Of a stretch of DNA of 64,000 bases, positions 1 through 34,618 are shown piece by piece (positions within the stretch are counted from its first letter, which is position 1; every line of letters begins with the position of its first letter). The notes below the pieces were generated by a model, which ran no database searches, was not told the origin of the DNA, and worked only from the letters and a program-made list of their open reading frames with translations. Origin of the DNA: Naegleria gruberi (taxonomy: Eukaryota); NCBI GenBank assembly GCA_000004985.1, contig GG738904.1. The stretch is one strand, 5' to 3'. A program made the translations under genes and the position numbers.

Positions 1-303
1 CCCAAACCCAAACCCAAACCCAAACCCAACCCAAACCCAAACCCAAACCCAAACCCAAACCCAAACCCAAACCCAAACCCAAACCCAAACCCAAACCCAA
101 CCCAAACCCAAACCCAAACCCAAACCCAAACCCAAACCCAAACCCAAACCCAAACCCAAACCCAAACCCAAACCCAAACCCAAACCCAAACCCAAACCCA
201 AACCCAAACCCAAACCCAAACCCAAACCCAAACCCAAACCCAAACCCAAACCCAAACCCAAACCCAAACCCAAACCCAAACCCAAACCCAAACCCAAACC
301 CAC
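1..303. repeat. Terminal telomeric repeat (CCCAAA)n, about 50 units. The C-rich strand runs 5'->3' on the + strand, which is the orientation expected at a left chromosome end. Occasional CCCAAC variants occur.
   Basis: Perfect hexamer periodicity from base 1 to about 303 (G-strand TTTGGG), with units lacking one A at about 28-33 and 100-105. The tract gives way abruptly to AT-rich unique sequence. Confidence 0.9.
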
Positions 304-984
304 GACTAAGGTCAGACCCAACATTTTTACTTTTATTCATCTTAATTAATTATCTCAATAAATACTCATTATAAATCAATATATTATATATCAATATACT
401 CCAAATTGAATATATAATCATATAATAACATAATATTACATCATTATAATGACTTATATAAGTTAATTTCATATAATAGATTAGACAATTAGAATATCAA
501 TGAAAACATTTCAAATTCAATTCAAATAAATATATCACCTTGTGTATCATGTTAATAACAATATATATCAATTTCAAATACTTTGGTATCATTTCAGGAA
601 ATTAACTATTCAACTTGTCAACTGACCTATTCTAACATTGAAGATAGAATTCTGTTCCACTTCAATTCACTTCCAATACATATATACATGATAATAAAAT
701 ATATTAATATCATTTTGACATTCATCCATATTATACATGGTACATGGCTGATCCACTTGATACATACAGGATTGTGACATTGACATCTACTATACAGATC
801 ATTATGAAATTGATACAGTGCCTTACTAATGGTGAATAAACACTACTGTATCAGTTTCATGACAATTTGAAATCATTCAACATGTCAGGAGTGTAATCAT
901 GAGAATTATAAATGTCAAGATAATCAAATCATATTAAATTTAAAATCTTTCAATTACAATATCATATTTAGATCAATTAATCAT

Positions 985-3900
985 NNNNNNNNNNNNNNNN
1001 NNNNNNNNNNNNNNNNNNNNNNNNNNNNNNNNNNNNNNNNNNNNNNNNNNNNNNNNNNNNNNNNNNNNNNNNNNNNNNNNNNNNNNNNNNNNNNNNNNNN
1101 NNNNNNNNNNNNNNNNNNNNNNNNNNNNNNNNNNNNNNNNNNNNNNNNNNNNNNNNNNNNNNNNNNNNNNNNNNNNNNNNNNNNNNNNNNNNNNNNNNNN
1201 NNNNNNNNNNNNNNNNNNNNNNNNNNNNNNNNNNNNNNNNNNNNNNNNNNNNNNNNNNNNNNNNNNNNNNNNNNNNNNNNNNNNNNNNNNNNNNNNNNNN
1301 NNNNNNNNNNNNNNNNNNNNNNNNNNNNNNNNNNNNNNNNNNNNNNNNNNNNNNNNNNNNNNNNNNNNNNNNNNNNNNNNNNNNNNNNNNNNNNNNNNNN
1401 NNNNNNNNNNNNNNNNNNNNNNNNNNNNNNNNNNNNNNNNNNNNNNNNNNNNNNNNNNNNNNNNNNNNNNNNNNNNNNNNNNNNNNNNNNNNNNNNNNNN
1501 NNNNNNNNNNNNNNNNNNNNNNNNNNNNNNNNNNNNNNNNNNNNNNNNNNNNNNNNNNNNNNNNNNNNNNNNNNNNNNNNNNNNNNNNNNNNNNNNNNNN
1601 NNNNNNNNNNNNNNNNNNNNNNNNNNNNNNNNNNNNNNNNNNNNNNNNNNNNNNNNNNNNNNNNNNNNNNNNNNNNNNNNNNNNNNNNNNNNNNNNNNNN
1701 NNNNNNNNNNNNNNNNNNNNNNNNNNNNNNNNNNNNNNNNNNNNNNNNNNNNNNNNNNNNNNNNNNNNNNNNNNNNNNNNNNNNNNNNNNNNNNNNNNNN
1801 NNNNNNNNNNNNNNNNNNNNNNNNNNNNNNNNNNNNNNNNNNNNNNNNNNNNNNNNNNNNNNNNNNNNNNNNNNNNNNNNNNNNNNNNNNNNNNNNNNNN
1901 NNNNNNNNNNNNNNNNNNNNNNNNNNNNNNNNNNNNNNNNNNNNNNNNNNNNNNNNNNNNNNNNNNNNNNNNNNNNNNNNNNNNNNNNNNNNNNNNNNNN
2001 NNNNNNNNNNNNNNNNNNNNNNNNNNNNNNNNNNNNNNNNNNNNNNNNNNNNNNNNNNNNNNNNNNNNNNNNNNNNNNNNNNNNNNNNNNNNNNNNNNNN
2101 NNNNNNNNNNNNNNNNNNNNNNNNNNNNNNNNNNNNNNNNNNNNNNNNNNNNNNNNNNNNNNNNNNNNNNNNNNNNNNNNNNNNNNNNNNNNNNNNNNNN
2201 NNNNNNNNNNNNNNNNNNNNNNNNNNNNNNNNNNNNNNNNNNNNNNNNNNNNNNNNNNNNNNNNNNNNNNNNNNNNNNNNNNNNNNNNNNNNNNNNNNNN
2301 NNNNNNNNNNNNNNNNNNNNNNNNNNNNNNNNNNNNNNNNNNNNNNNNNNNNNNNNNNNNNNNNNNNNNNNNNNNNNNNNNNNNNNNNNNNNNNNNNNNN
2401 NNNNNNNNNNNNNNNNNNNNNNNNNNNNNNNNNNNNNNNNNNNNNNNNNNNNNNNNNNNNNNNNNNNNNNNNNNNNNNNNNNNNNNNNNNNNNNNNNNNN
2501 NNNNNNNNNNNNNNNNNNNNNNNNNNNNNNNNNNNNNNNNNNNNNNNNNNNNNNNNNNNNNNNNNNNNNNNNNNNNNNNNNNNNNNNNNNNNNNNNNNNN
2601 NNNNNNNNNNNNNNNNNNNNNNNNNNNNNNNNNNNNNNNNNNNNNNNNNNNNNNNNNNNNNNNNNNNNNNNNNNNNNNNNNNNNNNNNNNNNNNNNNNNN
2701 NNNNNNNNNNNNNNNNNNNNNNNNNNNNNNNNNNNNNNNNNNNNNNNNNNNNNNNNNNNNNNNNNNNNNNNNNNNNNNNNNNNNNNNNNNNNNNNNNNNN
2801 NNNNNNNNNNNNNNNNNNNNNNNNNNNNNNNNNNNNNNNNNNNNNNNNNNNNNNNNNNNNNNNNNNNNNNNNNNNNNNNNNNNNNNNNNNNNNNNNNNNN
2901 NNNNNNNNNNNNNNNNNNNNNNNNNNNNNNNNNNNNNNNNNNNNNNNNNNNNNNNNNNNNNNNNNNNNNNNNNNNNNNNNNNNNNNNNNNNNNNNNNNNN
3001 NNNNNNNNNNNNNNNNNNNNNNNNNNNNNNNNNNNNNNNNNNNNNNNNNNNNNNNNNNNNNNNNNNNNNNNNNNNNNNNNNNNNNNNNNNNNNNNNNNNN
3101 NNNNNNNNNNNNNNNNNNNNNNNNNNNNNNNNNNNNNNNNNNNNNNNNNNNNNNNNNNNNNNNNNNNNNNNNNNNNNNNNNNNNNNNNNNNNNNNNNNNN
3201 NNNNNNNNNNNNNNNNNNNNNNNNNNNNNNNNNNNNNNNNNNNNNNNNNNNNNNNNNNNNNNNNNNNNNNNNNNNNNNNNNNNNNNNNNNNNNNNNNNNN
3301 NNNNNNNNNNNNNNNNNNNNNNNNNNNNNNNNNNNNNNNNNNNNNNNNNNNNNNNNNNNNNNNNNNNNNNNNNNNNNNNNNNNNNNNNNNNNNNNNNNNN
3401 NNNNNNNNNNNNNNNNNNNNNNNNNNNNNNNNNNNNNNNNNNNNNNNNNNNNNNNNNNNNNNNNNNNNNNNNNNNNNNNNNNNNNNNNNNNNNNNNNNNN
3501 NNNNNNNNNNNNNNNNNNNNNNNNNNNNNNNNNNNNNNNNNNNNNNNNNNNNNNNNNNNNNNNNNNNNNNNNNNNNNNNNNNNNNNNNNNNNNNNNNNNN
3601 NNNNNNNNNNNNNNNNNNNNNNNNNNNNNNNNNNNNNNNNNNNNNNNNNNNNNNNNNNNNNNNNNNNNNNNNNNNNNNNNNNNNNNNNNNNNNNNNNNNN
3701 NNNNNNNNNNNNNNNNNNNNNNNNNNNNNNNNNNNNNNNNNNNNNNNNNNNNNNNNNNNNNNNNNNNNNNNNNNNNNNNNNNNNNNNNNNNNNNNNNNNN
3801 NNNNNNNNNNNNNNNNNNNNNNNNNNNNNNNNNNNNNNNNNNNNNNNNNNNNNNNNNNNNNNNNNNNNNNNNNNNNNNNNNNNNNNNNNNNNNNNNNNNN

Positions 3901-6105
3901 NNNNNNNNNNNNNNNNNNNNNNNNNNNNNNNNNNNNNNNNNNNNNNNNNNNNNNNNNNNNNNNNNNNNNNNNNNNNNNNNNNNNNNNNNNNNNNNNNNNN
4001 NNNNNNNNNNNNNNNNNNNNNNNNNNNNNNNNNNNNNNNNNNNNNNNNNNNNNNNNNNNNNNNNNNNNNNNNNNNNNNNNNNNNNNNNNNNNNNNNNNNN
4101 NNNNNNNNNNNNNNNNNNNNNNNNNNNNNNNNNNNNNNNNNNNNNNNNNNNNNNNNNNNNNNNNNNNNNNNNNNNNNNNNNNNNNNNNNNNNNNNNNNNN
4201 NNNNNNNNNNNNNNNNNNNNNNNNNNNNNNNNNNNNNNNNNNNNNNNNNNNNNNNNNNNNNNNNNNNNNNNNNNNNNNNNNNNNNNNNNNNNNNNNNNNN
4301 NNNNNNNNNNNNNNNNNNNNNNNNNNNNNNNNNNNNNNNNNNNNNNNNNNNNNNNNNNNNNNNNNNNNNNNNNNNNNNNNNNNNNNNNNNNNNNNNNNNN
4401 NNNNNNNNNNNNNNNNNNNNNNNNNNNNNNNNNNNNNNNNNNNNNNNNNNNNNNNNNNNNNNNNNNNNNNNNNNNNNNNNNNNNNNNNNNNNNNNNNNNN
4501 NNNNNNNNNNNNNNNNNNNNNNNNNNNNNNNNNNNNNNNNNNNNNNNNNNNNNNNNNNNNNNNNNNNNNNNNNNNNNNNNNNNNNNNNNNNNNNNNNNNN
4601 NNNNNNNNNNNNNNNNNNNNNNNNNNNNNNNNNNNNNNNNNNNNNNNNNNNNNNNNNNNNNNNNNNNNNNNNNNNNNNNNNNNNNNNNNNNNNNNNNNNN
4701 NNNNNNNNNNNNNNNNNNNNNNNNNNNNNNNNNNNNNNNNNNNNNNNNNNNNNNNNNNNNNNNNNNNNNNNNNNNNNNNNNNNNNNNNNNNNNNNNNNNN
4801 NNNNNNNNNNNNNNNNNNNNNNNNNNNNNNNNNNNNNNNNNNNNNNNNNNNNNNNNNNNNNNNNNNNNNNNNNNNNNNNNNNNNNNNNNNNNNNNNNNNN
4901 NNNNNNNNNNNNNNNNNNNNNNNNNNNNNNNNNNNNNNNNNNNNNNNNNNNNNNNNNNNNNNNNNNNNNNNNNNNNNNNNNNNNNNNNNNNNNNNNNNNN
5001 NNNNNNNNNNNNNNNNNNNNNNNNNNNNNNNNNNNNNNNNNNNNNNNNNNNNNNNNNNNNNNNNNNNNNNNNNNNNNNNNNNNNNNNNNNNNNNNNNNNN
5101 NNNNNNNNNNNNNNNNNNNNNNNNNNNNNNNNNNNNNNNNNNNNNNNNNNNNNNNNNNNNNNNNNNNNNNNNNNNNNNNNNNNNNNNNNNNNNNNNNNNN
5201 NNNNNNNNNNNNNNNNNNNNNNNNNNNNNNNNNNNNNNNNNNNNNNNNNNNNNNNNNNNNNNNNNNNNNNNNNNNNNNNNNNNNNNNNNNNNNNNNNNNN
5301 NNNNNNNNNNNNNNNNNNNNNNNNNNNNNNNNNNNNNNNNNNNNNNNNNNNNNNNNNNNNNNNNNNNNNNNNNNNNNNNNNNNNNNNNNNNNNNNNNNNN
5401 NNNNNNNNNNNNNNNNNNNNNNNNNNNNNNNNNNNNNNNNNNNNNNNNNNNNNNNNNNNNNNNNNNNNNNNNNNNNNNNNNNNNNNNNNNNNNNNNNNNN
5501 NNNNNNNNNNNNNNNNNNNNNNNNNNNNNNNNNNNNNNNNNNNNNNNNNNNNNNNNNNNNNNNNNNNNNNNNNNNNNNNNNNNNNNNNNNNNNNNNNNNN
5601 NNNNNNNNNNNNNNNNNNNNNNNNNNNNNNNNNNNNNNNNNNNNNNNNNNNNNNNNNNNNNNNNNNNNNNNNNNNNNNNNNNNNNNNNNNNNNNNNNNNN
5701 NNNNNNNNNNNNNNNNNNNNNNNNNNNNNNNNNNNNNNNNNNNNNNNNNNNNNNNNNNNNNNNNNNNNNNNNNNNNNNNNNNNNNNNNNNNNNNNNNNNN
5801 NNNNNNNNNNNNNNNNNNNNNNNNNNNNNNNNNNNNNNNNNNNNNNNNNNNNNNNNNNNNNNNNNNNNNNNNNNNNNNNNNNNNNNNNNNNNNNNNNNNN
5901 NNNNNNNNNNNNNNNNNNNNNNNNNNNNNNNNNNNNNNNNNNNNNNNNNNNNNNNNNNNNNNNNNNNNNNNNNNNNNNNNNNNNNNNNNNNNNNNNNNNN
6001 NNNNNNNNNNNNNNNNNNNNNNNNNNNNNNNNNNNNNNNNNNNNNNNNNNNNNNNNNNNNNNNNNNNNNNNNNNNNNNNNNNNNNNNNNNNNNNNNNNNN
6101 NNNNN
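985..6105. other. Assembly gap (N run, about 5.1 kb)
   Basis: Contiguous n characters. All six-frame ORFs that span it are artifacts. Confidence 0.99.
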
Positions 6106-6605
6106 ACTCAATTTTACTAGGTAACGACAGTATTTGTGACAAATGTAATGTCAAGGAAGATTGGACCCACGTATTCCAAACTTGTCCCAAATGCAATCCT
6201 GAAAAGGATGAACTGTATGCCACATGGGACGCTATCTCCCAGAAATTTAGCCTTAACAAGATTCGTTTCCCTCCTGATATCTCAGAATCCTCTCAACTTA
6301 GGATAGAATTTGATGGTCGTTGCTCCCGTAATGACTGGCTTAACTGGTCTAAGCGCAAAAGAATACCTAAGAATGTGGCCCTAGAAGTCTACAAAGCACT
6401 AGCTATTTATTTGGAAAATTGCTACAAGAACTCAGTGTGGTACAACCGTCCCAATGCAGGCTTCACTATTAACAGGAAATACCTCTCTGCCTACCACAGG
6501 CAGGCTCAGTCTAACCAACCACTTAGCGTCAACCCATAACACTTAAACGCTGAACCGAAACTTACTGGTTGTAGACCTCGTCTCTCAGGTCTTTACGATA
6601 CAAGA
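6106..6605 (+). mobile_element. 3' end of a retroelement-like ORF with a Cys/His-rich C-terminal region (the ORF's 5' part is lost in the gap; stop at 6537-6539). It is followed by a 3' UTR carrying a short hairpin (GTAGACC...AGGTCT).
   Basis: The + frame reads LGNDSICDKCNVKEDWTHVFQTCPKCNPEKDELYATWDAISQKF...NRKYLSAYHRQAQSNQPLSVNP*. The CxxC...H...CxxC knuckle is typical of the C-terminus of non-LTR retrotransposon ORF2. Local GC content is clearly higher than in the flanks. About 60 bp of the 3' end recur in inverted orientation at 19305-19362. Confidence 0.4.
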
Positions 6606-7296
6606 GACGTTAATAAAATCACAATTTACTTTTGCAGGTTCTACCACTTCTTGATTACTAGCAAGCTTCAACTCCATTTCACTTAGTCTTGAAAGAAGTA
6701 CATCCATGTTCGCAATATTCCTTCTTGATTTGACTCTAGCTGTACCATTATTCCTGCAAGACTCAACATCTTCCGACTCAGATGAAGAAGGAGAGGATGA
6801 CGAGGAGTCGGTTCTTCTAGAGTGATTCAGAGGAATACTCTGGCTTGTGCTTCCCGAGTCTGAATGATGATGTCTACCAAATTGTCAACTGACCTATCAG
6901 AAGGTAGTTGAATGCCCATTGATTCAATGAGTTCCTCTAATTGATCAATAGAGCACTCTGATAATTCATTTCTTGATTTAAAATACATCTTTCGGAATTA
7001 ATTTGAGACTTCAAGGTATAAATGGGAAGTAGAATCAACAAGTGTTAAAACCATCTTTTATTACACAAAACAAAAGAAATATCCAATTGTCACAATTGAA
7101 CAATACAATAGATTGAAACTTTTCCAAATTACCATTTGAATCGGGAAGTGATGATGATTTTAGTGAACAATATTAAATTTCACTAAAATATTAATATTAT
7201 CAGATTTCCACAAATATTACTATTATAATGATGATAAATAACAATGATGATGGTTGGTAGTTGTTCCGATGTGATGGAACACGGTAGTATCTGGAA

Positions 7297-7513
7297 TTGA
7301 AAAAAATGACTCAAGTCTCTAAAGGTTTGTGTAATGATCAAAGTTTGCTAATAATTGTAATAGAAATATTTTCTGATGATGTAATTTATGAAATTATTTC
7401 CTATTTATGTGATGATTGGAAATTCGTATTATTAAATTGCGTAATGGTAACAAAACAATGGTTGAACGTCATCCGAGATCGATCCGAGCTTTCAATGATG
7501 GCGAATAATCATT
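7297..7513 (+). CDS. F-box-like protein, 5' fragment that runs into the gap
   Basis: The ORF opens MKKMTQVSKGLCNDQSLLIIVIEIFSDDVIYEIISYLCDDWKFVLLNCVMVTKQW, an F-box-like pattern (L..I..I...VI.EI.SYL......L..V.K.W). The rest is unknown because of the gap. Confidence 0.35.
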
Positions 7514-10500
7514 NNNNNNNNNNNNNNNNNNNNNNNNNNNNNNNNNNNNNNNNNNNNNNNNNNNNNNNNNNNNNNNNNNNNNNNNNNNNNNNNNNNNNNN
7601 NNNNNNNNNNNNNNNNNNNNNNNNNNNNNNNNNNNNNNNNNNNNNNNNNNNNNNNNNNNNNNNNNNNNNNNNNNNNNNNNNNNNNNNNNNNNNNNNNNNN
7701 NNNNNNNNNNNNNNNNNNNNNNNNNNNNNNNNNNNNNNNNNNNNNNNNNNNNNNNNNNNNNNNNNNNNNNNNNNNNNNNNNNNNNNNNNNNNNNNNNNNN
7801 NNNNNNNNNNNNNNNNNNNNNNNNNNNNNNNNNNNNNNNNNNNNNNNNNNNNNNNNNNNNNNNNNNNNNNNNNNNNNNNNNNNNNNNNNNNNNNNNNNNN
7901 NNNNNNNNNNNNNNNNNNNNNNNNNNNNNNNNNNNNNNNNNNNNNNNNNNNNNNNNNNNNNNNNNNNNNNNNNNNNNNNNNNNNNNNNNNNNNNNNNNNN
8001 NNNNNNNNNNNNNNNNNNNNNNNNNNNNNNNNNNNNNNNNNNNNNNNNNNNNNNNNNNNNNNNNNNNNNNNNNNNNNNNNNNNNNNNNNNNNNNNNNNNN
8101 NNNNNNNNNNNNNNNNNNNNNNNNNNNNNNNNNNNNNNNNNNNNNNNNNNNNNNNNNNNNNNNNNNNNNNNNNNNNNNNNNNNNNNNNNNNNNNNNNNNN
8201 NNNNNNNNNNNNNNNNNNNNNNNNNNNNNNNNNNNNNNNNNNNNNNNNNNNNNNNNNNNNNNNNNNNNNNNNNNNNNNNNNNNNNNNNNNNNNNNNNNNN
8301 NNNNNNNNNNNNNNNNNNNNNNNNNNNNNNNNNNNNNNNNNNNNNNNNNNNNNNNNNNNNNNNNNNNNNNNNNNNNNNNNNNNNNNNNNNNNNNNNNNNN
8401 NNNNNNNNNNNNNNNNNNNNNNNNNNNNNNNNNNNNNNNNNNNNNNNNNNNNNNNNNNNNNNNNNNNNNNNNNNNNNNNNNNNNNNNNNNNNNNNNNNNN
8501 NNNNNNNNNNNNNNNNNNNNNNNNNNNNNNNNNNNNNNNNNNNNNNNNNNNNNNNNNNNNNNNNNNNNNNNNNNNNNNNNNNNNNNNNNNNNNNNNNNNN
8601 NNNNNNNNNNNNNNNNNNNNNNNNNNNNNNNNNNNNNNNNNNNNNNNNNNNNNNNNNNNNNNNNNNNNNNNNNNNNNNNNNNNNNNNNNNNNNNNNNNNN
8701 NNNNNNNNNNNNNNNNNNNNNNNNNNNNNNNNNNNNNNNNNNNNNNNNNNNNNNNNNNNNNNNNNNNNNNNNNNNNNNNNNNNNNNNNNNNNNNNNNNNN
8801 NNNNNNNNNNNNNNNNNNNNNNNNNNNNNNNNNNNNNNNNNNNNNNNNNNNNNNNNNNNNNNNNNNNNNNNNNNNNNNNNNNNNNNNNNNNNNNNNNNNN
8901 NNNNNNNNNNNNNNNNNNNNNNNNNNNNNNNNNNNNNNNNNNNNNNNNNNNNNNNNNNNNNNNNNNNNNNNNNNNNNNNNNNNNNNNNNNNNNNNNNNNN
9001 NNNNNNNNNNNNNNNNNNNNNNNNNNNNNNNNNNNNNNNNNNNNNNNNNNNNNNNNNNNNNNNNNNNNNNNNNNNNNNNNNNNNNNNNNNNNNNNNNNNN
9101 NNNNNNNNNNNNNNNNNNNNNNNNNNNNNNNNNNNNNNNNNNNNNNNNNNNNNNNNNNNNNNNNNNNNNNNNNNNNNNNNNNNNNNNNNNNNNNNNNNNN
9201 NNNNNNNNNNNNNNNNNNNNNNNNNNNNNNNNNNNNNNNNNNNNNNNNNNNNNNNNNNNNNNNNNNNNNNNNNNNNNNNNNNNNNNNNNNNNNNNNNNNN
9301 NNNNNNNNNNNNNNNNNNNNNNNNNNNNNNNNNNNNNNNNNNNNNNNNNNNNNNNNNNNNNNNNNNNNNNNNNNNNNNNNNNNNNNNNNNNNNNNNNNNN
9401 NNNNNNNNNNNNNNNNNNNNNNNNNNNNNNNNNNNNNNNNNNNNNNNNNNNNNNNNNNNNNNNNNNNNNNNNNNNNNNNNNNNNNNNNNNNNNNNNNNNN
9501 NNNNNNNNNNNNNNNNNNNNNNNNNNNNNNNNNNNNNNNNNNNNNNNNNNNNNNNNNNNNNNNNNNNNNNNNNNNNNNNNNNNNNNNNNNNNNNNNNNNN
9601 NNNNNNNNNNNNNNNNNNNNNNNNNNNNNNNNNNNNNNNNNNNNNNNNNNNNNNNNNNNNNNNNNNNNNNNNNNNNNNNNNNNNNNNNNNNNNNNNNNNN
9701 NNNNNNNNNNNNNNNNNNNNNNNNNNNNNNNNNNNNNNNNNNNNNNNNNNNNNNNNNNNNNNNNNNNNNNNNNNNNNNNNNNNNNNNNNNNNNNNNNNNN
9801 NNNNNNNNNNNNNNNNNNNNNNNNNNNNNNNNNNNNNNNNNNNNNNNNNNNNNNNNNNNNNNNNNNNNNNNNNNNNNNNNNNNNNNNNNNNNNNNNNNNN
9901 NNNNNNNNNNNNNNNNNNNNNNNNNNNNNNNNNNNNNNNNNNNNNNNNNNNNNNNNNNNNNNNNNNNNNNNNNNNNNNNNNNNNNNNNNNNNNNNNNNNN
10001 NNNNNNNNNNNNNNNNNNNNNNNNNNNNNNNNNNNNNNNNNNNNNNNNNNNNNNNNNNNNNNNNNNNNNNNNNNNNNNNNNNNNNNNNNNNNNNNNNNNN
10101 NNNNNNNNNNNNNNNNNNNNNNNNNNNNNNNNNNNNNNNNNNNNNNNNNNNNNNNNNNNNNNNNNNNNNNNNNNNNNNNNNNNNNNNNNNNNNNNNNNNN
10201 NNNNNNNNNNNNNNNNNNNNNNNNNNNNNNNNNNNNNNNNNNNNNNNNNNNNNNNNNNNNNNNNNNNNNNNNNNNNNNNNNNNNNNNNNNNNNNNNNNNN
10301 NNNNNNNNNNNNNNNNNNNNNNNNNNNNNNNNNNNNNNNNNNNNNNNNNNNNNNNNNNNNNNNNNNNNNNNNNNNNNNNNNNNNNNNNNNNNNNNNNNNN
10401 NNNNNNNNNNNNNNNNNNNNNNNNNNNNNNNNNNNNNNNNNNNNNNNNNNNNNNNNNNNNNNNNNNNNNNNNNNNNNNNNNNNNNNNNNNNNNNNNNNNN

Positions 10501-13500
10501 NNNNNNNNNNNNNNNNNNNNNNNNNNNNNNNNNNNNNNNNNNNNNNNNNNNNNNNNNNNNNNNNNNNNNNNNNNNNNNNNNNNNNNNNNNNNNNNNNNNN
10601 NNNNNNNNNNNNNNNNNNNNNNNNNNNNNNNNNNNNNNNNNNNNNNNNNNNNNNNNNNNNNNNNNNNNNNNNNNNNNNNNNNNNNNNNNNNNNNNNNNNN
10701 NNNNNNNNNNNNNNNNNNNNNNNNNNNNNNNNNNNNNNNNNNNNNNNNNNNNNNNNNNNNNNNNNNNNNNNNNNNNNNNNNNNNNNNNNNNNNNNNNNNN
10801 NNNNNNNNNNNNNNNNNNNNNNNNNNNNNNNNNNNNNNNNNNNNNNNNNNNNNNNNNNNNNNNNNNNNNNNNNNNNNNNNNNNNNNNNNNNNNNNNNNNN
10901 NNNNNNNNNNNNNNNNNNNNNNNNNNNNNNNNNNNNNNNNNNNNNNNNNNNNNNNNNNNNNNNNNNNNNNNNNNNNNNNNNNNNNNNNNNNNNNNNNNNN
11001 NNNNNNNNNNNNNNNNNNNNNNNNNNNNNNNNNNNNNNNNNNNNNNNNNNNNNNNNNNNNNNNNNNNNNNNNNNNNNNNNNNNNNNNNNNNNNNNNNNNN
11101 NNNNNNNNNNNNNNNNNNNNNNNNNNNNNNNNNNNNNNNNNNNNNNNNNNNNNNNNNNNNNNNNNNNNNNNNNNNNNNNNNNNNNNNNNNNNNNNNNNNN
11201 NNNNNNNNNNNNNNNNNNNNNNNNNNNNNNNNNNNNNNNNNNNNNNNNNNNNNNNNNNNNNNNNNNNNNNNNNNNNNNNNNNNNNNNNNNNNNNNNNNNN
11301 NNNNNNNNNNNNNNNNNNNNNNNNNNNNNNNNNNNNNNNNNNNNNNNNNNNNNNNNNNNNNNNNNNNNNNNNNNNNNNNNNNNNNNNNNNNNNNNNNNNN
11401 NNNNNNNNNNNNNNNNNNNNNNNNNNNNNNNNNNNNNNNNNNNNNNNNNNNNNNNNNNNNNNNNNNNNNNNNNNNNNNNNNNNNNNNNNNNNNNNNNNNN
11501 NNNNNNNNNNNNNNNNNNNNNNNNNNNNNNNNNNNNNNNNNNNNNNNNNNNNNNNNNNNNNNNNNNNNNNNNNNNNNNNNNNNNNNNNNNNNNNNNNNNN
11601 NNNNNNNNNNNNNNNNNNNNNNNNNNNNNNNNNNNNNNNNNNNNNNNNNNNNNNNNNNNNNNNNNNNNNNNNNNNNNNNNNNNNNNNNNNNNNNNNNNNN
11701 NNNNNNNNNNNNNNNNNNNNNNNNNNNNNNNNNNNNNNNNNNNNNNNNNNNNNNNNNNNNNNNNNNNNNNNNNNNNNNNNNNNNNNNNNNNNNNNNNNNN
11801 NNNNNNNNNNNNNNNNNNNNNNNNNNNNNNNNNNNNNNNNNNNNNNNNNNNNNNNNNNNNNNNNNNNNNNNNNNNNNNNNNNNNNNNNNNNNNNNNNNNN
11901 NNNNNNNNNNNNNNNNNNNNNNNNNNNNNNNNNNNNNNNNNNNNNNNNNNNNNNNNNNNNNNNNNNNNNNNNNNNNNNNNNNNNNNNNNNNNNNNNNNNN
12001 NNNNNNNNNNNNNNNNNNNNNNNNNNNNNNNNNNNNNNNNNNNNNNNNNNNNNNNNNNNNNNNNNNNNNNNNNNNNNNNNNNNNNNNNNNNNNNNNNNNN
12101 NNNNNNNNNNNNNNNNNNNNNNNNNNNNNNNNNNNNNNNNNNNNNNNNNNNNNNNNNNNNNNNNNNNNNNNNNNNNNNNNNNNNNNNNNNNNNNNNNNNN
12201 NNNNNNNNNNNNNNNNNNNNNNNNNNNNNNNNNNNNNNNNNNNNNNNNNNNNNNNNNNNNNNNNNNNNNNNNNNNNNNNNNNNNNNNNNNNNNNNNNNNN
12301 NNNNNNNNNNNNNNNNNNNNNNNNNNNNNNNNNNNNNNNNNNNNNNNNNNNNNNNNNNNNNNNNNNNNNNNNNNNNNNNNNNNNNNNNNNNNNNNNNNNN
12401 NNNNNNNNNNNNNNNNNNNNNNNNNNNNNNNNNNNNNNNNNNNNNNNNNNNNNNNNNNNNNNNNNNNNNNNNNNNNNNNNNNNNNNNNNNNNNNNNNNNN
12501 NNNNNNNNNNNNNNNNNNNNNNNNNNNNNNNNNNNNNNNNNNNNNNNNNNNNNNNNNNNNNNNNNNNNNNNNNNNNNNNNNNNNNNNNNNNNNNNNNNNN
12601 NNNNNNNNNNNNNNNNNNNNNNNNNNNNNNNNNNNNNNNNNNNNNNNNNNNNNNNNNNNNNNNNNNNNNNNNNNNNNNNNNNNNNNNNNNNNNNNNNNNN
12701 NNNNNNNNNNNNNNNNNNNNNNNNNNNNNNNNNNNNNNNNNNNNNNNNNNNNNNNNNNNNNNNNNNNNNNNNNNNNNNNNNNNNNNNNNNNNNNNNNNNN
12801 NNNNNNNNNNNNNNNNNNNNNNNNNNNNNNNNNNNNNNNNNNNNNNNNNNNNNNNNNNNNNNNNNNNNNNNNNNNNNNNNNNNNNNNNNNNNNNNNNNNN
12901 NNNNNNNNNNNNNNNNNNNNNNNNNNNNNNNNNNNNNNNNNNNNNNNNNNNNNNNNNNNNNNNNNNNNNNNNNNNNNNNNNNNNNNNNNNNNNNNNNNNN
13001 NNNNNNNNNNNNNNNNNNNNNNNNNNNNNNNNNNNNNNNNNNNNNNNNNNNNNNNNNNNNNNNNNNNNNNNNNNNNNNNNNNNNNNNNNNNNNNNNNNNN
13101 NNNNNNNNNNNNNNNNNNNNNNNNNNNNNNNNNNNNNNNNNNNNNNNNNNNNNNNNNNNNNNNNNNNNNNNNNNNNNNNNNNNNNNNNNNNNNNNNNNNN
13201 NNNNNNNNNNNNNNNNNNNNNNNNNNNNNNNNNNNNNNNNNNNNNNNNNNNNNNNNNNNNNNNNNNNNNNNNNNNNNNNNNNNNNNNNNNNNNNNNNNNN
13301 NNNNNNNNNNNNNNNNNNNNNNNNNNNNNNNNNNNNNNNNNNNNNNNNNNNNNNNNNNNNNNNNNNNNNNNNNNNNNNNNNNNNNNNNNNNNNNNNNNNN
13401 NNNNNNNNNNNNNNNNNNNNNNNNNNNNNNNNNNNNNNNNNNNNNNNNNNNNNNNNNNNNNNNNNNNNNNNNNNNNNNNNNNNNNNNNNNNNNNNNNNNN

Positions 13501-13723
13501 NNNNNNNNNNNNNNNNNNNNNNNNNNNNNNNNNNNNNNNNNNNNNNNNNNNNNNNNNNNNNNNNNNNNNNNNNNNNNNNNNNNNNNNNNNNNNNNNNNNN
13601 NNNNNNNNNNNNNNNNNNNNNNNNNNNNNNNNNNNNNNNNNNNNNNNNNNNNNNNNNNNNNNNNNNNNNNNNNNNNNNNNNNNNNNNNNNNNNNNNNNNN
13701 NNNNNNNNNNNNNNNNNNNNNNN
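7514..13723. other. Assembly gap (N run, about 6.2 kb)
   Basis: Contiguous n characters. Confidence 0.99.
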
Positions 13724-14153
13724 CCCTAACCCAAACCCAAACCCAAAGCCAAACCCAAACCCAAACCCAAACCCAAACCCAAGCCCAAACCCAAACCCAA
13801 ACCCAAACCCAAACCCAAACCCAAACCCAAACCCAAACCCAAACCCAAACCCAAACCCAAACCCAAACCCAAACCCAAACCCAAACCCAAACCCAAACCC
13901 AAACCCAAACCCAACCCAAACCCAAACCCAAACCCAAACCCAAACCCAAACCCAAACCCAAACCCAAACCCAAACCCAAACCCAAACCCAAACCCAAACC
14001 CAAACCCAAACCCAAACCCAAACCCAAACCCAAACCCAAACCCAAACCCAAACCCAAACCCAAACCCAAACCCAAACCCAAACCCAAACCCAAACCCAAA
14101 CCCAAACCCAAACCCAAACCCAAACCCAAACCCAAACCCAAACCCAAACCCAA
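13724..14153. repeat. Internal telomere-repeat tract (CCCAAA)n, about 70 units, in the same orientation as the terminal tract, with a degenerate proximal boundary
   Basis: It starts CCCTAACCCAAACCCAAA immediately after the gap. Variant units CCCAAAGCC and CCCAAGCCC occur. It decays into telomere-like remnants (aaacccaacg, aaaccctagcccaaaa) at 14154-14210. Confidence 0.9.
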
Positions 14154-15022
14154 ACTAAAAATAGAATTCTTCTAAACCCAACGTTCAAACCCTAGCCCAA
14201 AATTATAAACTTATTCAAATATCATTAAATTTTATATCATTCGATTGGAAATTATGAGTAGAACAACGTGGTATATTTAGTTTTTCAATTTATAAAATAT
14301 TAAATTTGTTAATAATGTCAGATTAAAATTTCATAAATGAAACTATAGGAAGAATGATAATTTCAAAATCGTTTAATGAGATTATATAGTCAATATCATC
14401 ATTAACAACATTCATAATCACTTTCATATGAAATTTCAAAGGTTCATGTCTGTAGATATAAAAGTATCAAGTGAAAAGGGAAGATGTGAGGTAAAAGAGG
14501 TCAACAATAACTTTTGAGTTTCTCATCAAAACATATTGAATCCTAATATGAAAATGTTCCATTTGATGATTAAACATCGAATATCAAATTTATTTTGACT
14601 TTCATATTTACAGATTTCTTCCCTCAATCACACATGGTCAACTTGTATGAAAAGGAGGAAATCTTGAAAAAGGACCACCTATTGAAACTTTACCATCATG
14701 ATGTAGATGATATATAATGATGTAGAATTCAATTTCATATCATAAGAATTAGAAATGGTACCATGGGAATGTAAATGTTGATTTTCCAAAGTTGACTGAN
14801 AGGAAAGACAAGTCAGACCAAGTCTATCAAATATATCACTTCAATCAACAAATTATACATGAAAATGCTCCATTCGATGNNNNNNNNNNNNNNNNNNNNN
14901 NNNNNNNNNNNNNNNNNNNNNNNNNNNNNCATGAGTGCAGAACTGAGTTATTCAAAATTTGTGAATGTTCGGTCCAGTCAAATCAAAGATGGGTTCTTAA
15001 CTACCCATAGGTTTGCATTCTT

Positions 15023-16096
15023 CTAGATATTATTGAGCACATTCTCCATCTCTATTCTTTCAATTTCCTCCGTTGTAAAGTTTCCTTTCATTGGAATAAA
15101 CACATGATCGTAAAAGGCCTTGAACCAATAACTCACTGGACAACATCTATTAAAATTCTCTTCAGAGCCTGTATGTACTCCTATTACTGATCGATCAAGA
15201 ATTACATTCTCCTTAAAGTCTCTCCAATTGCTATAATTTTCACAACAAGGAAGAACAGCACCGCCTGAAGAGCCTGGAAATGAGCTGGCGTTATAGTGTT
15301 TACAACATGTTTTTTCGTTAGTATCAACAAATTTTCCAAAGCTAATATTTTTACACTCCAACTCAAACATACTCTTTAAGGCAATAAGATTTGTGTGATA
15401 ATCTAAATGTTGTTCTAAAGTTGTTACATCTTTCTCAGTTGGCATGCCTTGAAAGGAAAGAATAGACATGTTATAATCATGTTCTGATTGAGGGTTGAGC
15501 TTTGAAGGACTTGGAATAAGGTATGATTCTGGAAAATGTTGTTCATCTAATACTATATCGATTGGTACTTCCATTTTCATCAAAACCCAATCTTTGTTTG
15601 GATGTTCCTTTACATTTTCATCCTCTTTCAGATCTGATTTTGCAAGAATGGTGCAATTCATGGATCTGGCACTTAACGGCTCAAACCTATGATTCTTCCC
15701 TAAAATTCCTTTAATCATTCTTAAAGAAAGTTGCACTACTTCATTATTGTATTCATATTCAAAAGGAAGAGTGTTATGCAAGCATGTCACAAAGTAATAT
15801 TCCCAAATAGTGTCGAGTTTGTTTGGAGGAGCAACAAGGAAGCCAGAACCCCGAATTGGAACTCTAACATCAATTTGTTTAGAATTAACACCTTGATAAA
15901 AACAAACTACATCAACAACAGCATTAAAAACATCCAGATTATCCTTTGCAGATTTTAAATCATAACAACTACAAATTCTGGGATAGGTTGTTAATCGGAA
16001 GGGATTGAGGCAACCTGTTAAATCCTCAAAACAATTCCTTGATTTTTCATCAACAATTAACATCTCCTCCGACACAGTGGTAGAGTACTTATTCAT
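15023..16096 (-). CDS. Trypsin-fold (PA clan) serine peptidase-like protein, paralog A of a tandem pair. The first Met abuts a 50-N gap at 16102.
   Basis: ORF of 357 aa. Catalytic-triad-like motifs: His in TCLHN, Asp in DWVLMKM (compare DIALLKL), Ser in GSSGGAV (compare GDSGGP), followed by VIGVHTGS. It is about 95% identical to 16811-17851, except for an in-frame 81-bp insertion (plus strand about 15424-15504) and a 6-bp indel. Confidence 0.6.
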   Translation of the reverse strand: MNKYSTTVSEEMLIVDEKSRNCFEDLTGCLNPFRLTTYPRICSCYDLKSAKDNLDVFNAVVDVVCFYQGVNSKQIDVRVPIRGSGFLVAPPNKLDTIWEYYFVTCLHNTLPFEYEYNNEVVQLSLRMIKGILGKNHRFEPLSARSMNCTILAKSDLKEDENVKEHPNKDWVLMKMEVPIDIVLDEQHFPESYLIPSPSKLNPQSEHDYNMSILSFQGMPTEKDVTTLEQHLDYHTNLIALKSMFELECKNISFGKFVDTNEKTCCKHYNASSFPGSSGGAVLPCCENYSNWRDFKENVILDRSVIGVHTGSEENFNRCCPVSYWFKAFYDHVFIPMKGNFTTEEIERIEMENVLNNI

Positions 16097-16810
16097 CGAT
16101 GNNNNNNNNNNNNNNNNNNNNNNNNNNNNNNNNNNNNNNNNNNNNNNNNNNTTCTGTATACATTATTATAATCGTAATACCTTGCAATACCAATAAAACT
16201 CAATAGAAGAATTAATTCTTCTCATTTTCAAATAGATTATTCAATATAGAACAGATCTAGATAGTTTCCAGATCATAAAAGTCAAGCTACTATATATGGT
16301 CTTTGATTAAATTTAAAAATAGACTGCCGTTGATTACTGGAATCTTGATTCAAAGCTTGTTGATCAACCTATTGATTGAAATCAAACCGATTATTGAATA
16401 TTGAATTGGTGAATAATCACTCTTGATACTGCTACATATTTCAGATTGCATGCAAATCAACCTGATTCAATCTTCAAAGGTTGGTAGTTGCACCACTACG
16501 TGGCGAAACTACCCATCCACGATCAATCAACATTAGATTCACTTCCATTCAACTCAATTTGACCGTTATAATCAATAAATCAATGAAATGTTCCTTTATT
16601 AGCAATACATATTCAATCTAACGAGTAGATTCACGTCCCAAACATTTGACTTCTCAAAGTCCATAATTCAAAAGTTAGTTCTGACCTGACCTTTAAATAT
16701 CTATCAATACAAGAAATGAAACCATCAAATTTACATCATTAATAGATGATAAGAAATATAATCAATGATATGAATCTTCACTAAGTAATCTCTTAAATAA
16801 CCCAAATAAA

Positions 16811-17851
16811 TCAACTCTGAATCCTAACCAAACCCTCTATTCTTTCAATTTCCTCCGTTGTAAAGTTTCCTTTCATTGAAACAAACACATGATCGTAAAA
16901 GGCCTTGAACCAATAACTCACTGGACAACATCTATTAAAATTCTCTTCAGAGCCTATATGTATTCCTATTACTGATCTATCAAGAATAACATTCTCCTTA
17001 AAGTCTCTCCAATTGCTATAATTTTCACAACAAGGCACCACAGCACCGCCTGAAGAGCCTGGAAATGAGCTGGCGTTATAGTTACATGTTTTTTCGTTAG
17101 TATCAACAAATTTTCCAAAGCTAATATTTTTACACTCCAACTCAAACATACTCTTTAAGGCAATAAGATTTGTGTGATGTTCTGATTGAGGGTTGAGCTT
17201 TGAAGGACTTGGAATAAGGTATGATTCTGGAAAATATTGTTCATCCAATACTACATCAATTGGCACTTCCATTTTCATCAAAACCCAATCATTGTTTGGA
17301 TGTTTCTTTACATTTTCATCTTCTTTCAGACCTGATTTTGCAAGAATGGTGCAATTCATAGATCTGGTACTTAATGGCTCAAACCTATGATTCTTCCCTA
17401 AAATTCCTTTCATCATTCTTAAAGAAAGTTGCACTACTTCATTATTGTATTCATATTCAAAAGGAAGAGTGTTATGCAAGCATGTCACAAAGTAATATTC
17501 CCAAATAGTGTCGAGTTTGTTTGGAGGAGCAACAAGGAAGCCAGAACCACGAATTGGAACTCTAACATCAATTTGTTTAGAATTAATACCTTGATAAAAA
17601 CAAACTACATCAACAACAGCATTAAAAACATCCAGATTATCCTTTGCAGATTTTAAATCATAATAACTACAAATTCTGGGATAGGTTGTTAATCGGAAGG
17701 GATTGAGGCAACCTGTTAAATCCTCAAAACAATTCCTTGATTTTTCATCAACAATTAACATCTCCTCCGACACAGTGGTAGAGTACTTATTCATCGATGG
17801 TTTCATAATTTCAATGTCATTGATTGGAATAGATTCTGCTGGTGAGAACAT
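16811..17851 (-). CDS. Trypsin-fold serine peptidase-like protein, paralog B (tandem duplicate of A)
   Basis: ORF of 346 aa with the same H/D/S motifs (TCLHN, DWVLMKM, GSSGGAV). It has an N-terminal extension MFSPAESIPINDIEIMKPS relative to copy A. Confidence 0.65.
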   Translation of the reverse strand: MFSPAESIPINDIEIMKPSMNKYSTTVSEEMLIVDEKSRNCFEDLTGCLNPFRLTTYPRICSYYDLKSAKDNLDVFNAVVDVVCFYQGINSKQIDVRVPIRGSGFLVAPPNKLDTIWEYYFVTCLHNTLPFEYEYNNEVVQLSLRMMKGILGKNHRFEPLSTRSMNCTILAKSGLKEDENVKKHPNNDWVLMKMEVPIDVVLDEQYFPESYLIPSPSKLNPQSEHHTNLIALKSMFELECKNISFGKFVDTNEKTCNYNASSFPGSSGGAVVPCCENYSNWRDFKENVILDRSVIGIHIGSEENFNRCCPVSYWFKAFYDHVFVSMKGNFTTEEIERIEGLVRIQS

Positions 17852-19304: not shown

Positions 19305-19362
19305 GGAGACCTTTTAATTAAGACGAGGTCTACAACCATTAGGTTTTCGTTTAAGCGTTCTT
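19305..19362 (-). mobile_element. Inverted copy of the roughly 60-bp 3'-terminal hairpin element of the retroelement at 6541-6600. It looks like a severely 5'-truncated insertion or solo 3' end.
   Basis: The reverse complement of 19305-19362 shares CTTAAACG...AACC...TGGTTGTAGACCTCGTCT...AGGTCT with 6541-6600, including the AGACC/GGTCT stem. It lies 2 bp after the stop codon of paralog C. Confidence 0.35.
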
Positions 19363-34095: not shown

Positions 34096-34618
34096 AAATC
34101 AGAAGGTGTTCTTAAAGATGGTCACTGGTGCCATCAATGGTTTGATTCGTGGATTTTGGTTAAAGATATTATTCCACTTGAAGAACATTCTTCAATTATT
34201 AGGAGATGTTACAGCATGCTATGTGGAAAGTACCGTTAATATTTCCAAAGATATTTTGGAAATGTACAGTTTCATAATGAAGGAATCATTTTTGGAAAGA
34301 TTAAATTCAAGAATTGAGGAGAGAAATCTTTTATGTATTGATTTTGAAATTGTTAACAATGGATTGGTAGATAGGAATGCAGAGTGTTTTAACTCATGGT
34401 ATGAAAATGTATCTAAACATCTTATTGATTGGTCAAGTAAGGCTGTAAGTAATCGATTTGCAGAGTTTACAGAGTTAGTGGATGAAATTTTTGGTCAAGT
34501 TAAGAATGATTATGCAATGATTGCTGATAAAACTATTGAAAAGAGAACAATGGAGTATAATTTTATTACTGAAAAGAAGAGAAGATTGACAGAATTGATC
34601 AAAGAGTTAAAAAAGTAG
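34085..34618 (+). CDS. Hypothetical protein of 177 aa, predicted helical. Its ATG is embedded in the P450 His-Glu codons (cATGag).
   Basis: ORF MSIENQKVFLKMVTGAINGLIRGFWLKILFHL...RLTELIKELKK in frame +2 relative to the P450. I recognise no domain. Confidence 0.3.
   Translation: MSIENQKVFLKMVTGAINGLIRGFWLKILFHLKNILQLLGDVTACYVESTVNISKDILEMYSFIMKESFLERLNSRIEERNLLCIDFEIVNNGLVDRNAECFNSWYENVSKHLIDWSSKAVSNRFAEFTELVDEIFGQVKNDYAMIADKTIEKRTMEYNFITEKKRRLTELIKELKK

What the first reader, a model, noticed from the sequence alone, without database searches (positions are those of the whole stretch)
1..14210. Two same-orientation (CCCAAA)n telomere tracts 13.4 kb apart, separated by retroelement and gene fragments and two large gaps
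The terminal tract (1-303) and an internal tract (13724-14153, with degenerate proximal edge) both have the C-strand on top. This is the signature of a former chromosome end that was extended by a telomere-capped segment, through break-induced replication, subtelomeric exchange or retroelement-associated healing. It could also come from scaffolding of two telomeric contigs.

The hexamer TTTGGG is uncommon. The most familiar telomere repeats are TTAGGG, TTTAGGG and TTGGGG.
Basis: partly seen in the sequence, partly recalled or inferred. Interest (0 to 1): 0.55.

Follow-up and report, generated by a model that had tools for sequence, protein, structure and literature searches.

The report
Two telomere contigs strung in a scaffold
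Both repeat tracts are genuine telomere repeats of the amoeba Naegleria gruberi, but each sits at the start of a tiny contig joined only by runs of N, so the "telomere inside a chromosome" is most likely a product of draft-genome scaffolding.

Summary
(CCCAAA)n runs at 1-302 (about 51 units) and 13724-14155 (72 units), both C-strand on top, with 0 such arrays expected by chance.

The window is the left end of a 297-kb scaffold of the 2010 Sanger draft of Naegleria gruberi NEG-M. TTTGGG is already published as this species' candidate telomere repeat (PMC3622300).

The nested layout is not shown by contiguous sequence. N makes up 84% of the interval between the tracts. The inner tract starts at the first base after a 6210-N gap, so its distal junction is never seen. 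Its only base substitutions lie within 60 nt of that contig edge.

The inner tract's contig is only 1156 bp. Two 50-N spacers and a 1172-bp contig, itself a 95-97% copy of sequence 1.8 kb away, separate it from the 43.6-kb main contig. The outer part is two contigs of 984 and 1408 bp.

The retroelement fragment is real. It is the C-terminal tail of an RT-bearing ORF plus a conserved 3' tail, but its 3' end does not abut telomere repeats.

Best reading: two separately cloned telomeric ends placed in series by the scaffolder (about 0.65). A true interstitial tract remains possible (about 0.25). Existing Nanopore reads would settle it. Low interest.

The parts
1..302 (+). Outer telomere tract. 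(CCCAAA)n, C-strand on top, starting at base 1 of the window and of contig A. Layout is 4 units, CCCAA, 11 units, CCCAA, 33 units, then an abrupt junction CCCA|CGACTAAGG.
303..984 (.). Remainder of contig A. AT-rich, no ORF, and no similarity to any other part of the window. Contig A is 984 bp in all, about one Sanger read.
985..6105 (.). Scaffold gap of 5121 N, a size-estimated gap. It probably hides the body of the retroelement whose 3' end opens contig B (inference).
   Evidence: inference
6108..6536 (+). C-terminal 143 codons of a retroelement ORF (zinc-knuckle-like CX2C...H...CX2C), with the stop codon at 6537-6539. A profile search reaches 703-aa and 685-aa proteins that carry RVT_1 (PF00078) upstream of the homologous region.
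6540..6632 (+). Conserved non-coding 3' tail of the element (GTCTCT...AGAGAC stem, AATAAA). It is shared with two Naegleria-like contigs, L001 and L002. Homology stops at about 6632 and is followed by non-telomeric DNA with no poly(A).
7297..7513 (+). Start of an ORF (72 codons) that runs into the gap. It looks F-box-like by eye, but Pfam gives only E=1.6, so it is unverified. Contig B as a whole is 6106-7513, or 1408 bp.
7514..13723 (.). Scaffold gap of 6210 N. The distal flank of the inner tract would lie here and is not sequenced.
13724..14155 (+). Inner telomere tract. (CCCAAA)72, C-strand on top, starting at the first base of contig C1. Its three substitution variants all lie within 60 nt of the contig edge.
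14156..14210 (+). Telomere-subtelomere junction with degenerate telomere-like motifs (AAACCCAAC, AAACCC, CCCAAAA).
14211..14879 (.). Remainder of contig C1 (13724-14879, 1156 bp). Non-coding, with one unresolved base (N) at 14800 that suggests about 1x read depth.
14880..14929 (.). Nominal 50-N spacer between C1 and C2. A related-strain contig (L003) extends 164 nt past the C2 edge and does not match C1, so this adjacency is uncorroborated.
14930..16101 (-). Contig C2 (1172 bp) carrying gene copy 1 (ORF 15023-16096, minus strand). It is 95-97% identical to 16835-17799 in the main contig. It is either a tandem paralogue or an allelic contig placed beside its allele.
16102..16151 (.). Nominal 50-N spacer between C2 and the 43.6-kb main contig D (16152-59749).
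16799..16835 (+). Two perfect C-strand telomeric 8-mers (AACCCAAA, CCAAACCC) at the point where homology between gene copies 1 and 2 stops. This is a weak hint of an older healed end.

Best explanation
Both tracts are real Naegleria gruberi telomere DNA: the C-strand of TTTGGG repeats, presumably laid down by telomerase. Each was cloned from a physical chromosome terminus.

The 'nested' layout is a product of scaffolding in the 2010 Sanger draft. The first 16.1 kb of the scaffold consists of four small contigs held together only by runs of N:
- A, 984 bp
- B, 1408 bp
- C1, 1156 bp
- C2, 1172 bp

Each telomere tract is the first sequence of its contig, which is what a clone starting at a chromosome tip gives. 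So the scaffold most likely places two separate telomeric ends in series rather than describing one DNA molecule.

A plausible route (inference): reads made only of telomere repeat are interchangeable between chromosome ends. If such a read from this end is absorbed into the telomere of contig A, its mate inside contig D links A to D. A (with B) would then sit to the left of D in the same orientation, because there is no room inside.

There are two sub-cases:
(i) A-B comes from another chromosome end, or from chimeric links. About 0.40.
(ii) A-B and C1-C2 are alternative ends of homologous copies of the same chromosome, and C2 is an allelic contig. About 0.25.

Shown: the contig and gap anatomy, the species, the repeat identity, and the retroelement tail. 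Inferred: how the links arose, and that telomerase makes the repeat.
For: Species and assembly:
- The malic-enzyme ORF at 31299-32720 falls in the 90% cluster that holds N. gruberi XP_002671535.1, on a 297,120-bp scaffold.
- The NEG-M genome is a Sanger assembly, GCA_000004985 (PMC8040595 and PMC9928731).
- TTTGGG is published as the candidate telomere of N. gruberi (PMC3622300).

Anatomy:
- The inner tract starts at the first base after the 6210-N gap.
- All 112 probe hits are on the + strand. No array anywhere has sequenced DNA on its distal side.
- The inner tract is 98% perfect. Its three substitutions are in the first 60 nt next to the contig edge, as expected for low-quality read ends, not at the proximal side as in an aged interstitial tract.
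- A lone N at 14800 points to about single-read depth.
- Contigs A, B, C1 and C2 are 984, 1408, 1156 and 1172 bp, each the length of one or two Sanger reads.
- C2 is flanked by two nominal 50-N spacers and is 95-97% identical to 16835-17799. The deposited gene model P0126 is spliced across that spacer from one copy into the other. Both show that local assembly is unreliable.
- The related-strain contig L003 does not continue from C2 into C1.
- A, the non-element part of B, C1 and the left end of D share no similarity.
Against: - A scaffolder normally needs real clone mates to join contigs. Those links cannot be inspected here, so genuine continuity in at least some DNA molecules is not excluded.
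- Both tracts have the same orientation, and the distal pieces carry typical subtelomere content: a retroelement and AT-rich non-coding DNA. That is also what a true extended end would look like.
- The 5121-N gap is about the size of the missing body of the retroelement. That gives an innocent, repeat-based reason for at least one gap.
- Two telomeric 8-mers at 16799-16835, at a duplication breakpoint, hint that this end may have been rebuilt on a telomere before.
Confidence: 0.65

Rival explanations
1. This is a true interstitial telomere tract. An old chromosome end at 14155 was extended by about 13.4 kb of telomere-capped DNA, through break-induced replication, subtelomeric exchange, or end joining of a fragment onto the telomere. 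That would leave TEL-13.4 kb-TEL-chromosome on one molecule.
For: - The two tracts have the same orientation.
- The native-looking degenerate junction at 14156-14210 suggests that 14155 once was, or still is, a real end.
- The distal content is subtelomere-like, with a retroelement tail.
- The scaffolder did place the pieces in this order.
- Telomeric 8-mers at 16799-16835 could be an older relic of the same process.
- Telomere repeats are high-copy, so an assembler could break at a real internal tract.
Against: - The distal junction is not sequenced. The tract abuts N.
- A 432-bp tract is shorter than a Sanger read. At normal depth, some read should have crossed a real internal tract of that length, yet none is represented.
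- The tract is nearly perfect, whereas interstitial tracts usually decay. Its only substitutions are at the contig edge.
- Only 2.1 kb of the 13.4 kb is sequenced.
- The tract's own contig is separated from the main contig by two further spacers.
Confidence: 0.25
2. These are alternative ends of homologous chromosome copies. One homologue ends at 14155 (C2-C1-telomere). Another carries different, longer distal DNA ending at position 1 (left end of D ... B-retroelement-A-telomere). The scaffolder placed the two haplotype ends in series. This is a biological sub-case of the best explanation.
For: - C2 (14930-16101) is a 95-97% copy of 16835-17799. It is bracketed by nominal 50-N spacers, which is the usual look of an allelic contig parked beside its allele.
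- Homology between the copies stops sharply at 16835/15050.
- The related strain's single gene (P0127) has copy 1's 27-residue insertion, C-terminus and downstream flank, but mostly copy 2's substitutions.
- Ploidy variation and aneuploidy are reported in other Naegleria species (PMC9928731).
Against: - Divergence of 3-5% plus an 81-bp indel is high for alleles. Both copies keep open reading frames, as true tandem paralogues would.
- No contig continues leftward from 16152 into B.
- The longer homologue's DNA should have been assembled at roughly half depth, yet only 2.1 kb is present.
Confidence: 0.22
3. Retroelement-mediated end extension. A non-LTR element used the telomeric 3' end as primer, as HeT-A/TART, SART/TRAS, MoTeR or GilT do. 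A new telomere was then added distal to it, which buried the old one.
For: The fragment at 6108-6632 is the tail of an RT-bearing ORF. Its 3' end points towards the chromosome interior, which is the orientation expected for terminal addition.
Against: - The element's 3' end at about 6632 is followed by about 880 bp of unrelated DNA and an ORF start, not by CCCAAA repeats.
- That orientation has a 50% chance of arising anyway.
- The two other copies found (L001, L002) have no telomere repeat next to them.
- None of 120 metagenome contigs carrying (CCCAAA)8 encodes the element.
Confidence: 0.03

Closest known systems
Candidate TTTGGG telomere of Naegleria gruberi (Fulneckova et al. 2013, Genome Biol Evol, PMC3622300)
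   Same: Same species, same hexamer, and the same criterion: terminal position on scaffolds with the C-strand at the 5' end. The outer tract here is one of those scaffold-end arrays.
   Different: That survey was in silico only and did not describe this locus. Terminal position has not been shown experimentally, there or here.
Internal telomere tracts between subtelomeric blocks (yeast Y'-TG1-3-Y' arrays; human subtelomeric (TTAGGG)n at duplicon boundaries). From general knowledge.
   Same: Same-orientation telomere tracts separated by kilobases of subtelomeric DNA, which is what the scaffold depicts.
   Different: In those cases the internal tracts are flanked on both sides by contiguous sequence, and are usually short or degenerate. 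Here the distal flank is a gap, and the tract is long and near-perfect.
Telomere-targeted retrotransposon arrays (MoTeR in Magnaporthe, bioRxiv 10.1101/845669; SART/TRAS, HeT-A/TART, GilT from general knowledge)
   Same: An RT-element tail lies between two telomere tracts, with its 3' end facing the interior.
   Different: The defining feature, the element's 3' end abutting telomere repeats, was tested and is not met.
Draft-assembly artefacts: allelic contigs and telomere contigs placed in series by mate-pair scaffolders. From general knowledge.
   Same: Contigs of one or two read lengths, nominal 50-N spacers, a 95-97% duplicate beside its counterpart, a gene model spliced across a spacer, and telomere arrays at contig starts.
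   Different: Read-pair data were not available, so the artefact is inferred from anatomy and not demonstrated.

Membership tests
Telomerase-type terminal telomere repeat | Long, nearly perfect tandem array of a short T/G-rich unit with strict strand asymmetry | tested here: met
   50.7 and 72.2 units at 98% matches. All 112 probe hits are on one strand, with 0 expected by chance.
Telomerase-type terminal telomere repeat | Array lies at the physical end of the sequence, with the C-rich strand reading 5'->3' inward | tested here: met
   The outer tract starts at window base 1. The inner tract starts at base 1 of its contig. Both have the C-strand on top. In metagenome contigs with the same repeat at an end, 44 show this orientation and 11 the opposite.
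Telomerase-type terminal telomere repeat | The same repeat caps many other chromosome ends of the same genome | not testable with these tools
   The N. gruberi genome could not be searched by DNA. Reported in silico in PMC3622300.
Telomerase-type terminal telomere repeat | Bal31 sensitivity, or a match to the telomerase RNA template | not testable with these tools
   Needs wet-lab work, or an identified Naegleria telomerase RNA. Rfam found nothing in the window.
Interstitial (nested) telomere tract | Array flanked on BOTH sides by non-telomeric DNA in contiguous sequence | tested here: not met
   The proximal flank is present (14156 onwards). The distal flank is a 6210-N gap that starts at the first repeat.
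Interstitial (nested) telomere tract | Same orientation as the terminal tract, as expected for end extension | tested here: met
   Both tracts have the C-strand on +. The artefact route predicts the same orientation.
Interstitial (nested) telomere tract | Decay of repeats relative to the terminal array | tested here: not met
   The inner tract is as perfect as the outer one. Its substitutions occur only within 60 nt of the contig edge.
Telomere-targeted non-LTR retrotransposon | Encodes a reverse transcriptase | tested here: inconclusive
   Only the C-terminal 143 residues are in the window. Homologues P0133 and P0134 carry RVT_1, E 4e-39 and 2e-37. The RT part of this copy would lie in the gap.
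Telomere-targeted non-LTR retrotransposon | The element's 3' end directly abuts telomere repeats | tested here: not met
   The conserved 3' tail ends at about 6632 and is followed by unrelated DNA. L001 and L002 also lack adjacent repeats.
Scaffolding / haplotype-serialisation artefact | The feature coincides with contig boundaries and N runs, and the contigs are of read length | tested here: met
   Contigs of 984, 1408, 1156 and 1172 bp. Gaps of 5121, 6210, 50 and 50 N. Both arrays sit at contig starts.
Scaffolding / haplotype-serialisation artefact | A near-identical small contig sits beside its counterpart | tested here: met
   14930-16101 against 16835-17799 is 95-97% identical. The chimeric gene model P0126 spans both.
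Scaffolding / haplotype-serialisation artefact | Read-pair links are shown to be false or to come from different molecules | not testable with these tools

The most novel reading that the evidence does not exclude
The layout is real, and this N. gruberi chromosome end has grown by repeated addition of telomere-capped segments onto an existing telomere. That would leave a young 432-bp internal tract at 13724-14155 and an almost erased older one at 16799-16835, at the breakpoint of a duplicated gene. It would be the first description of subtelomere growth by telomere burial in Heterolobosea.
Probability: 0.2. Interest if true: 0.4.

Novelty: already known. Interest (0 to 1): 0.12.

Why it matters
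As it stands, this matters mainly as a caution. In the 2010 N. gruberi draft, telomere arrays at contig starts can end up inside scaffolds. Counts of 'internal telomeric blocks' or subtelomere maps taken from that assembly should therefore be checked against gaps.

If the tract were truly internal, it would show that Naegleria subtelomeres grow by burying old telomeres. That process is already well known in yeast, fungi and humans, so even then it would be a modest addition.

If the two tracts are alternative ends of homologous chromosomes, it would be a concrete example of chromosome-end polymorphism in a polyploid laboratory strain.

Tried and rejected
1. Independent assemblies of the junction. 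Exact-protein look-ups for the three ORFs nearest the inner tract, and for the deposited gene model, found nothing on record. The only related contigs are short metagenome pieces from a strain about 98% identical (L003 at 1.5 kb, L004 at 8 kb). They do not reach the telomere.

2. Survey of other N. gruberi chromosome ends through a subtelomeric gene family. The gene next to the inner tract has only two database relatives, so there is no family to walk.

3. Metagenome scan for (CCCAAA)8. It returned 120 contigs, none related to the window by blastn or tblastx, and none encoding the retroelement. It was useful only to show the orientation bias of terminal arrays.

4. Pfam on the window fragments alone gave no hits. 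RT linkage needed a profile search of 1.84 billion representatives.

5. Shared subtelomeric sequence. A, B, C1 and the left end of D show no similarity above shuffled controls.

6. Rfam at gathering thresholds over the whole window gave no hits.

7. Literature. No paper in the library describes Naegleria telomeres beyond the 2013 survey. The 2010 genome paper and the 2011 review are not held, so the assembler and the library insert sizes could not be checked.

8. A ciliate (Paramecium-type) origin, suggested by the repeat, was considered and rejected. ORFs are long under the standard code, and the proteins match Naegleria.


Full report
**What is in the sequence**

The window opens with (CCCAAA)n at 1-302 (50.7 units). 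A second array lies at 13724-14155 (72.2 units). Both score 98% matches in Tandem Repeats Finder. An 18-mer probe allowing one mismatch hits 112 times. All hits are on the + strand and inside these two tracts, while dinucleotide-preserving shuffles give none. No G-strand array exists in the window.

**Where the window comes from**

ORFs are long under the standard genetic code and rich in Asn and Gln. A malic-enzyme ORF (31299-32720) is 82% identical to the Naegleria fowleri protein. It falls in a 90%-identity cluster that contains N. gruberi XP_002671535.1 / NAEGRDRAFT_59395, on a scaffold of 297,120 bp. The N. gruberi NEG-M genome (GCA_000004985, 2010, 40.9 Mb, 33% GC) is a Sanger assembly (PMC8040595 and PMC9928731). 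The window's G+C of 31-37% agrees.

TTTGGG has already been reported, from an in-silico survey of scaffold ends, as the candidate telomere repeat of N. gruberi (Fulneckova et al. 2013, PMC3622300). The 'uncommon hexamer' is therefore the known repeat of this species.

**Anatomy of the scaffold end**

The N runs divide the first 16.1 kb as follows:

| Piece | Coordinates | Length | Notes |
|---|---|---|---|
| Contig A | 1-984 | 984 bp | 302 bp of telomere repeat, then 682 bp |
| Gap | 985-6105 | 5121 N | |
| Contig B | 6106-7513 | 1408 bp | |
| Gap | 7514-13723 | 6210 N | |
| Contig C1 | 13724-14879 | 1156 bp | 432 bp of telomere repeat, then 724 bp; one N at 14800 |
| Spacer | 14880-14929 | 50 N | |
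| Contig C2 | 14930-16101 | 1172 bp | |
| Spacer | 16102-16151 | 50 N | |
| Contig D | 16152-59749 | 43.6 kb | main contig |

- Only 4720 of these 16,151 bases are sequence.
- Of the 13,421 bases between the tracts, 84% are N.
- Each telomere tract is the first sequence of its contig.
- The inner tract begins at the very first base after the 6210-N gap, so its distal junction, the feature that would define it as internal, is not in the data.
- Nowhere in the window does non-telomeric DNA read into a CCCAAA array from the left.

**Fine structure of the tracts**

- The outer tract has two CCCAA units and ends abruptly (CCCA|CGACT).
- The inner tract has three base substitutions: CCCTAA at 13724, GCCAAA at 13748 and CCCAAG at 13778.
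- All three lie within 60 nt of the contig edge. After them come 61 units that are perfect except for one CCCAA.
- Substitutions confined to the contig edge are what low-quality read ends give.
- An aged interstitial tract would instead be degenerate throughout, or at its proximal side.
- The lone N at 14800 also suggests roughly single-read depth.
- Proximal to the inner tract, 14156-14210 carries AAACCC twice and CCCAAAA. The background rate of AAACCC is 0.09 per kb.
- That is a normal-looking telomere-subtelomere junction, so 14155 is, or once was, a real chromosome end.

**What lies between the tracts**

- Contig A beyond the repeat is AT-rich, has no ORF, and resembles nothing else in the window.
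- Contig B opens with the last 143 codons of an ORF (6108-6536) that has a CX2C...H...CX2C motif.
- Pfam alone does not recognise this ORF, and only two close relatives exist among 5.8 billion proteins.
- A profile of the three sequences, searched against 1.84 billion representatives, reaches a 703-aa and a 685-aa protein. In both, the homologous region follows an RVT_1 reverse-transcriptase domain, with E 4e-39 and 2e-37.
- A conserved non-coding tail of about 95 nt, with a GTCTCT...AGAGAC stem and AATAAA, is shared with two Naegleria-like contigs and ends at about 6632.

It is the 3' end of an RT-bearing element whose body would lie in the 5121-N gap, and the size of that gap fits a full-length element (inference).

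The element's 3' end is followed by unrelated DNA, not by telomere repeats. The defining feature of telomere-targeted elements is therefore not met, and its orientation (3' end inward) could be chance. The ORF start at 7297-7513 is F-box-like only by eye (E=1.6).

**The pieces next to the inner tract are also unreliable**

- C2 carries gene copy 1 (15023-16096, minus strand). It is 95-97% identical to 16835-17799 in contig D, which holds copy 2.
- The deposited gene model P0126 starts in copy 2 and is 'spliced' across the 50-N spacer into copy 1.
- A contig from a strain about 98% identical (L003, ENA metagenome ERZ929261) is collinear with C2 up to its edge. It then continues for 164 nt that match neither C1 nor D. 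The C1-C2 adjacency therefore has no independent support.
- C2 may be a true tandem paralogue, or an allelic contig parked beside its allele. Both ORFs are intact, and the related strain's single gene mixes features of both. I could not decide between these.

**Interpretation**

The data show two telomere-terminated contigs of one or two read lengths, strung in series at a scaffold end by size-estimated gaps. The simplest reading is that they are two separately cloned chromosome termini.

A route that produces exactly this layout, with the same orientation, is as follows (inference). Reads consisting only of telomere repeat are interchangeable between ends. If such a read from this end is absorbed into the telomere of a foreign contig (A), its mate inside D links A, and its partner B, to the left of D.

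A biological variant is that A-B and C1-C2 are alternative ends of homologous chromosome copies. Naegleria strains are reported to show ploidy variation and aneuploidy (PMC9928731).

I give about 0.65 to 'serialised separate ends', split roughly 0.40 for a foreign end or mislinking and 0.25 for a homologue polymorphism. I give about 0.25 to a true interstitial tract, and a few percent to retroelement-mediated extension.

Several points keep the true-nesting reading alive:
- A scaffolder needs some clone links to make a join.
- The distal content looks like subtelomere.
- At least one gap has an innocent, repeat-based explanation.
- Two perfect telomeric 8-mers sit at 16799-16835, exactly where homology between the two gene copies ends. 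Only 9 such 8-mers occur on the + strand outside the tracts. This is a weak hint that this end was rebuilt on a telomere before.

**What could not be done**

No tool here reaches the N. gruberi genome, its Sanger traces or its long reads.
- Exact-protein look-ups for ORFs near the junction found nothing.
- The neighbouring gene has no family with which to survey other ends.
- A metagenome scan for (CCCAAA)8 returned 120 contigs unrelated to the window.
- That scan did show that terminal arrays of this repeat occur 44 to 11 in the telomeric orientation.
- The 2010 genome paper is not held, so the assembler settings and insert sizes are not verified.

**Comparison with known systems, and verdict**

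The repeat and its terminal position match the published N. gruberi candidate telomere. Nested same-orientation telomere tracts are well known elsewhere: yeast Y' arrays, human subtelomeric duplicon boundaries, and MoTeR arrays in Magnaporthe. Even the most favourable reading would be a new instance of a known kind.

The membership test for 'interstitial tract' fails on its defining feature, which is flanking sequence on both sides. The test for 'telomere-targeted retroelement' fails on 3'-end abutment.

The finding is best filed as a known telomere repeat plus a probable scaffolding product. Interest is low.

Nanopore reads of N. gruberi already exist (BioStudies S-BSST1363; assembly files at Zenodo 10.5281/zenodo.17174913; PMC12695648) and would settle the question in one mapping run.

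Noticed in passing
window 14930-17851: There are two 95-97% identical copies of an orphan gene with a GSSGG motif and no Pfam hit. Copy 1 is at 15023-16096 and copy 2 at 16811-17851, both on the minus strand. Copy 1 sits on a 1172-bp contig bracketed by 50-N spacers. The deposited N. gruberi gene model (P0126, 503 aa) is a chimera spliced from copy 2 into copy 1 across the spacer.
   Followed up: partly
window 16799-16835: Two perfect C-strand telomeric 8-mers (AACCCAAA, CCAAACCC) lie within 40 nt, exactly where homology between the two gene copies stops. Only 9 such 8-mers occur on the + strand outside the tracts. This may be a relic of an older healed end, or it may be chance.
   Followed up: partly
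window 34089-39233: A 5145-bp segment is absent from a related-strain contig (L004, about 98% identical). It lies inside a cytochrome P450 ORF and is bounded by GT...AG. Its last 100 nt or so carry a second P450 fragment (ETLRIHPPV). This looks like a paralogue-mediated indel between strains rather than a simple insertion. The segment contains three ORFs and the period-12/44 tandem repeat at 34683-34950.
   Followed up: partly
L003 and L004 (ENA metagenome assembly ERZ929261, PRJEB11402): An environmental metagenome contains a Naegleria about 96-98% identical in DNA to NEG-M across this region. That makes it a possible source of natural-strain comparison for N. gruberi subtelomeres.
   Followed up: no
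L005-L124 (metagenome contigs with (CCCAAA)8), e.g. L007, L017, L043, L054, L073 from WGS set JAESGV01: Many AT-rich metagenome contigs end in CCCAAA/TTTGGG arrays. 44 are in the telomeric orientation and 11 in the opposite one. Other uncultured eukaryotes therefore appear to use TTTGGG telomeres. None is related to this window, and their organisms were not identified.
   Followed up: partly
window 6108-6632; L001 755-1330; L002 72-711: This is a small Naegleria-restricted retroelement family. It has a distinctive C-terminal domain (W..F/YW.N..L..YQQRLLF...C..C...W.H.F..C..C) and a conserved 3' tail with a stem. Only 17 relatives at E<=1e-3 exist among 1.84 billion representative proteins. A 39-nt match to the tail lies at 19321-19359 on the minus strand.
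   Followed up: partly
window 57575-57687 and 59035-59197: These are coding tandem repeats of period 27 and of period 12/24/48, in Thr/Pro/Lys/Ser-rich ORFs. They were not examined.
   Followed up: no
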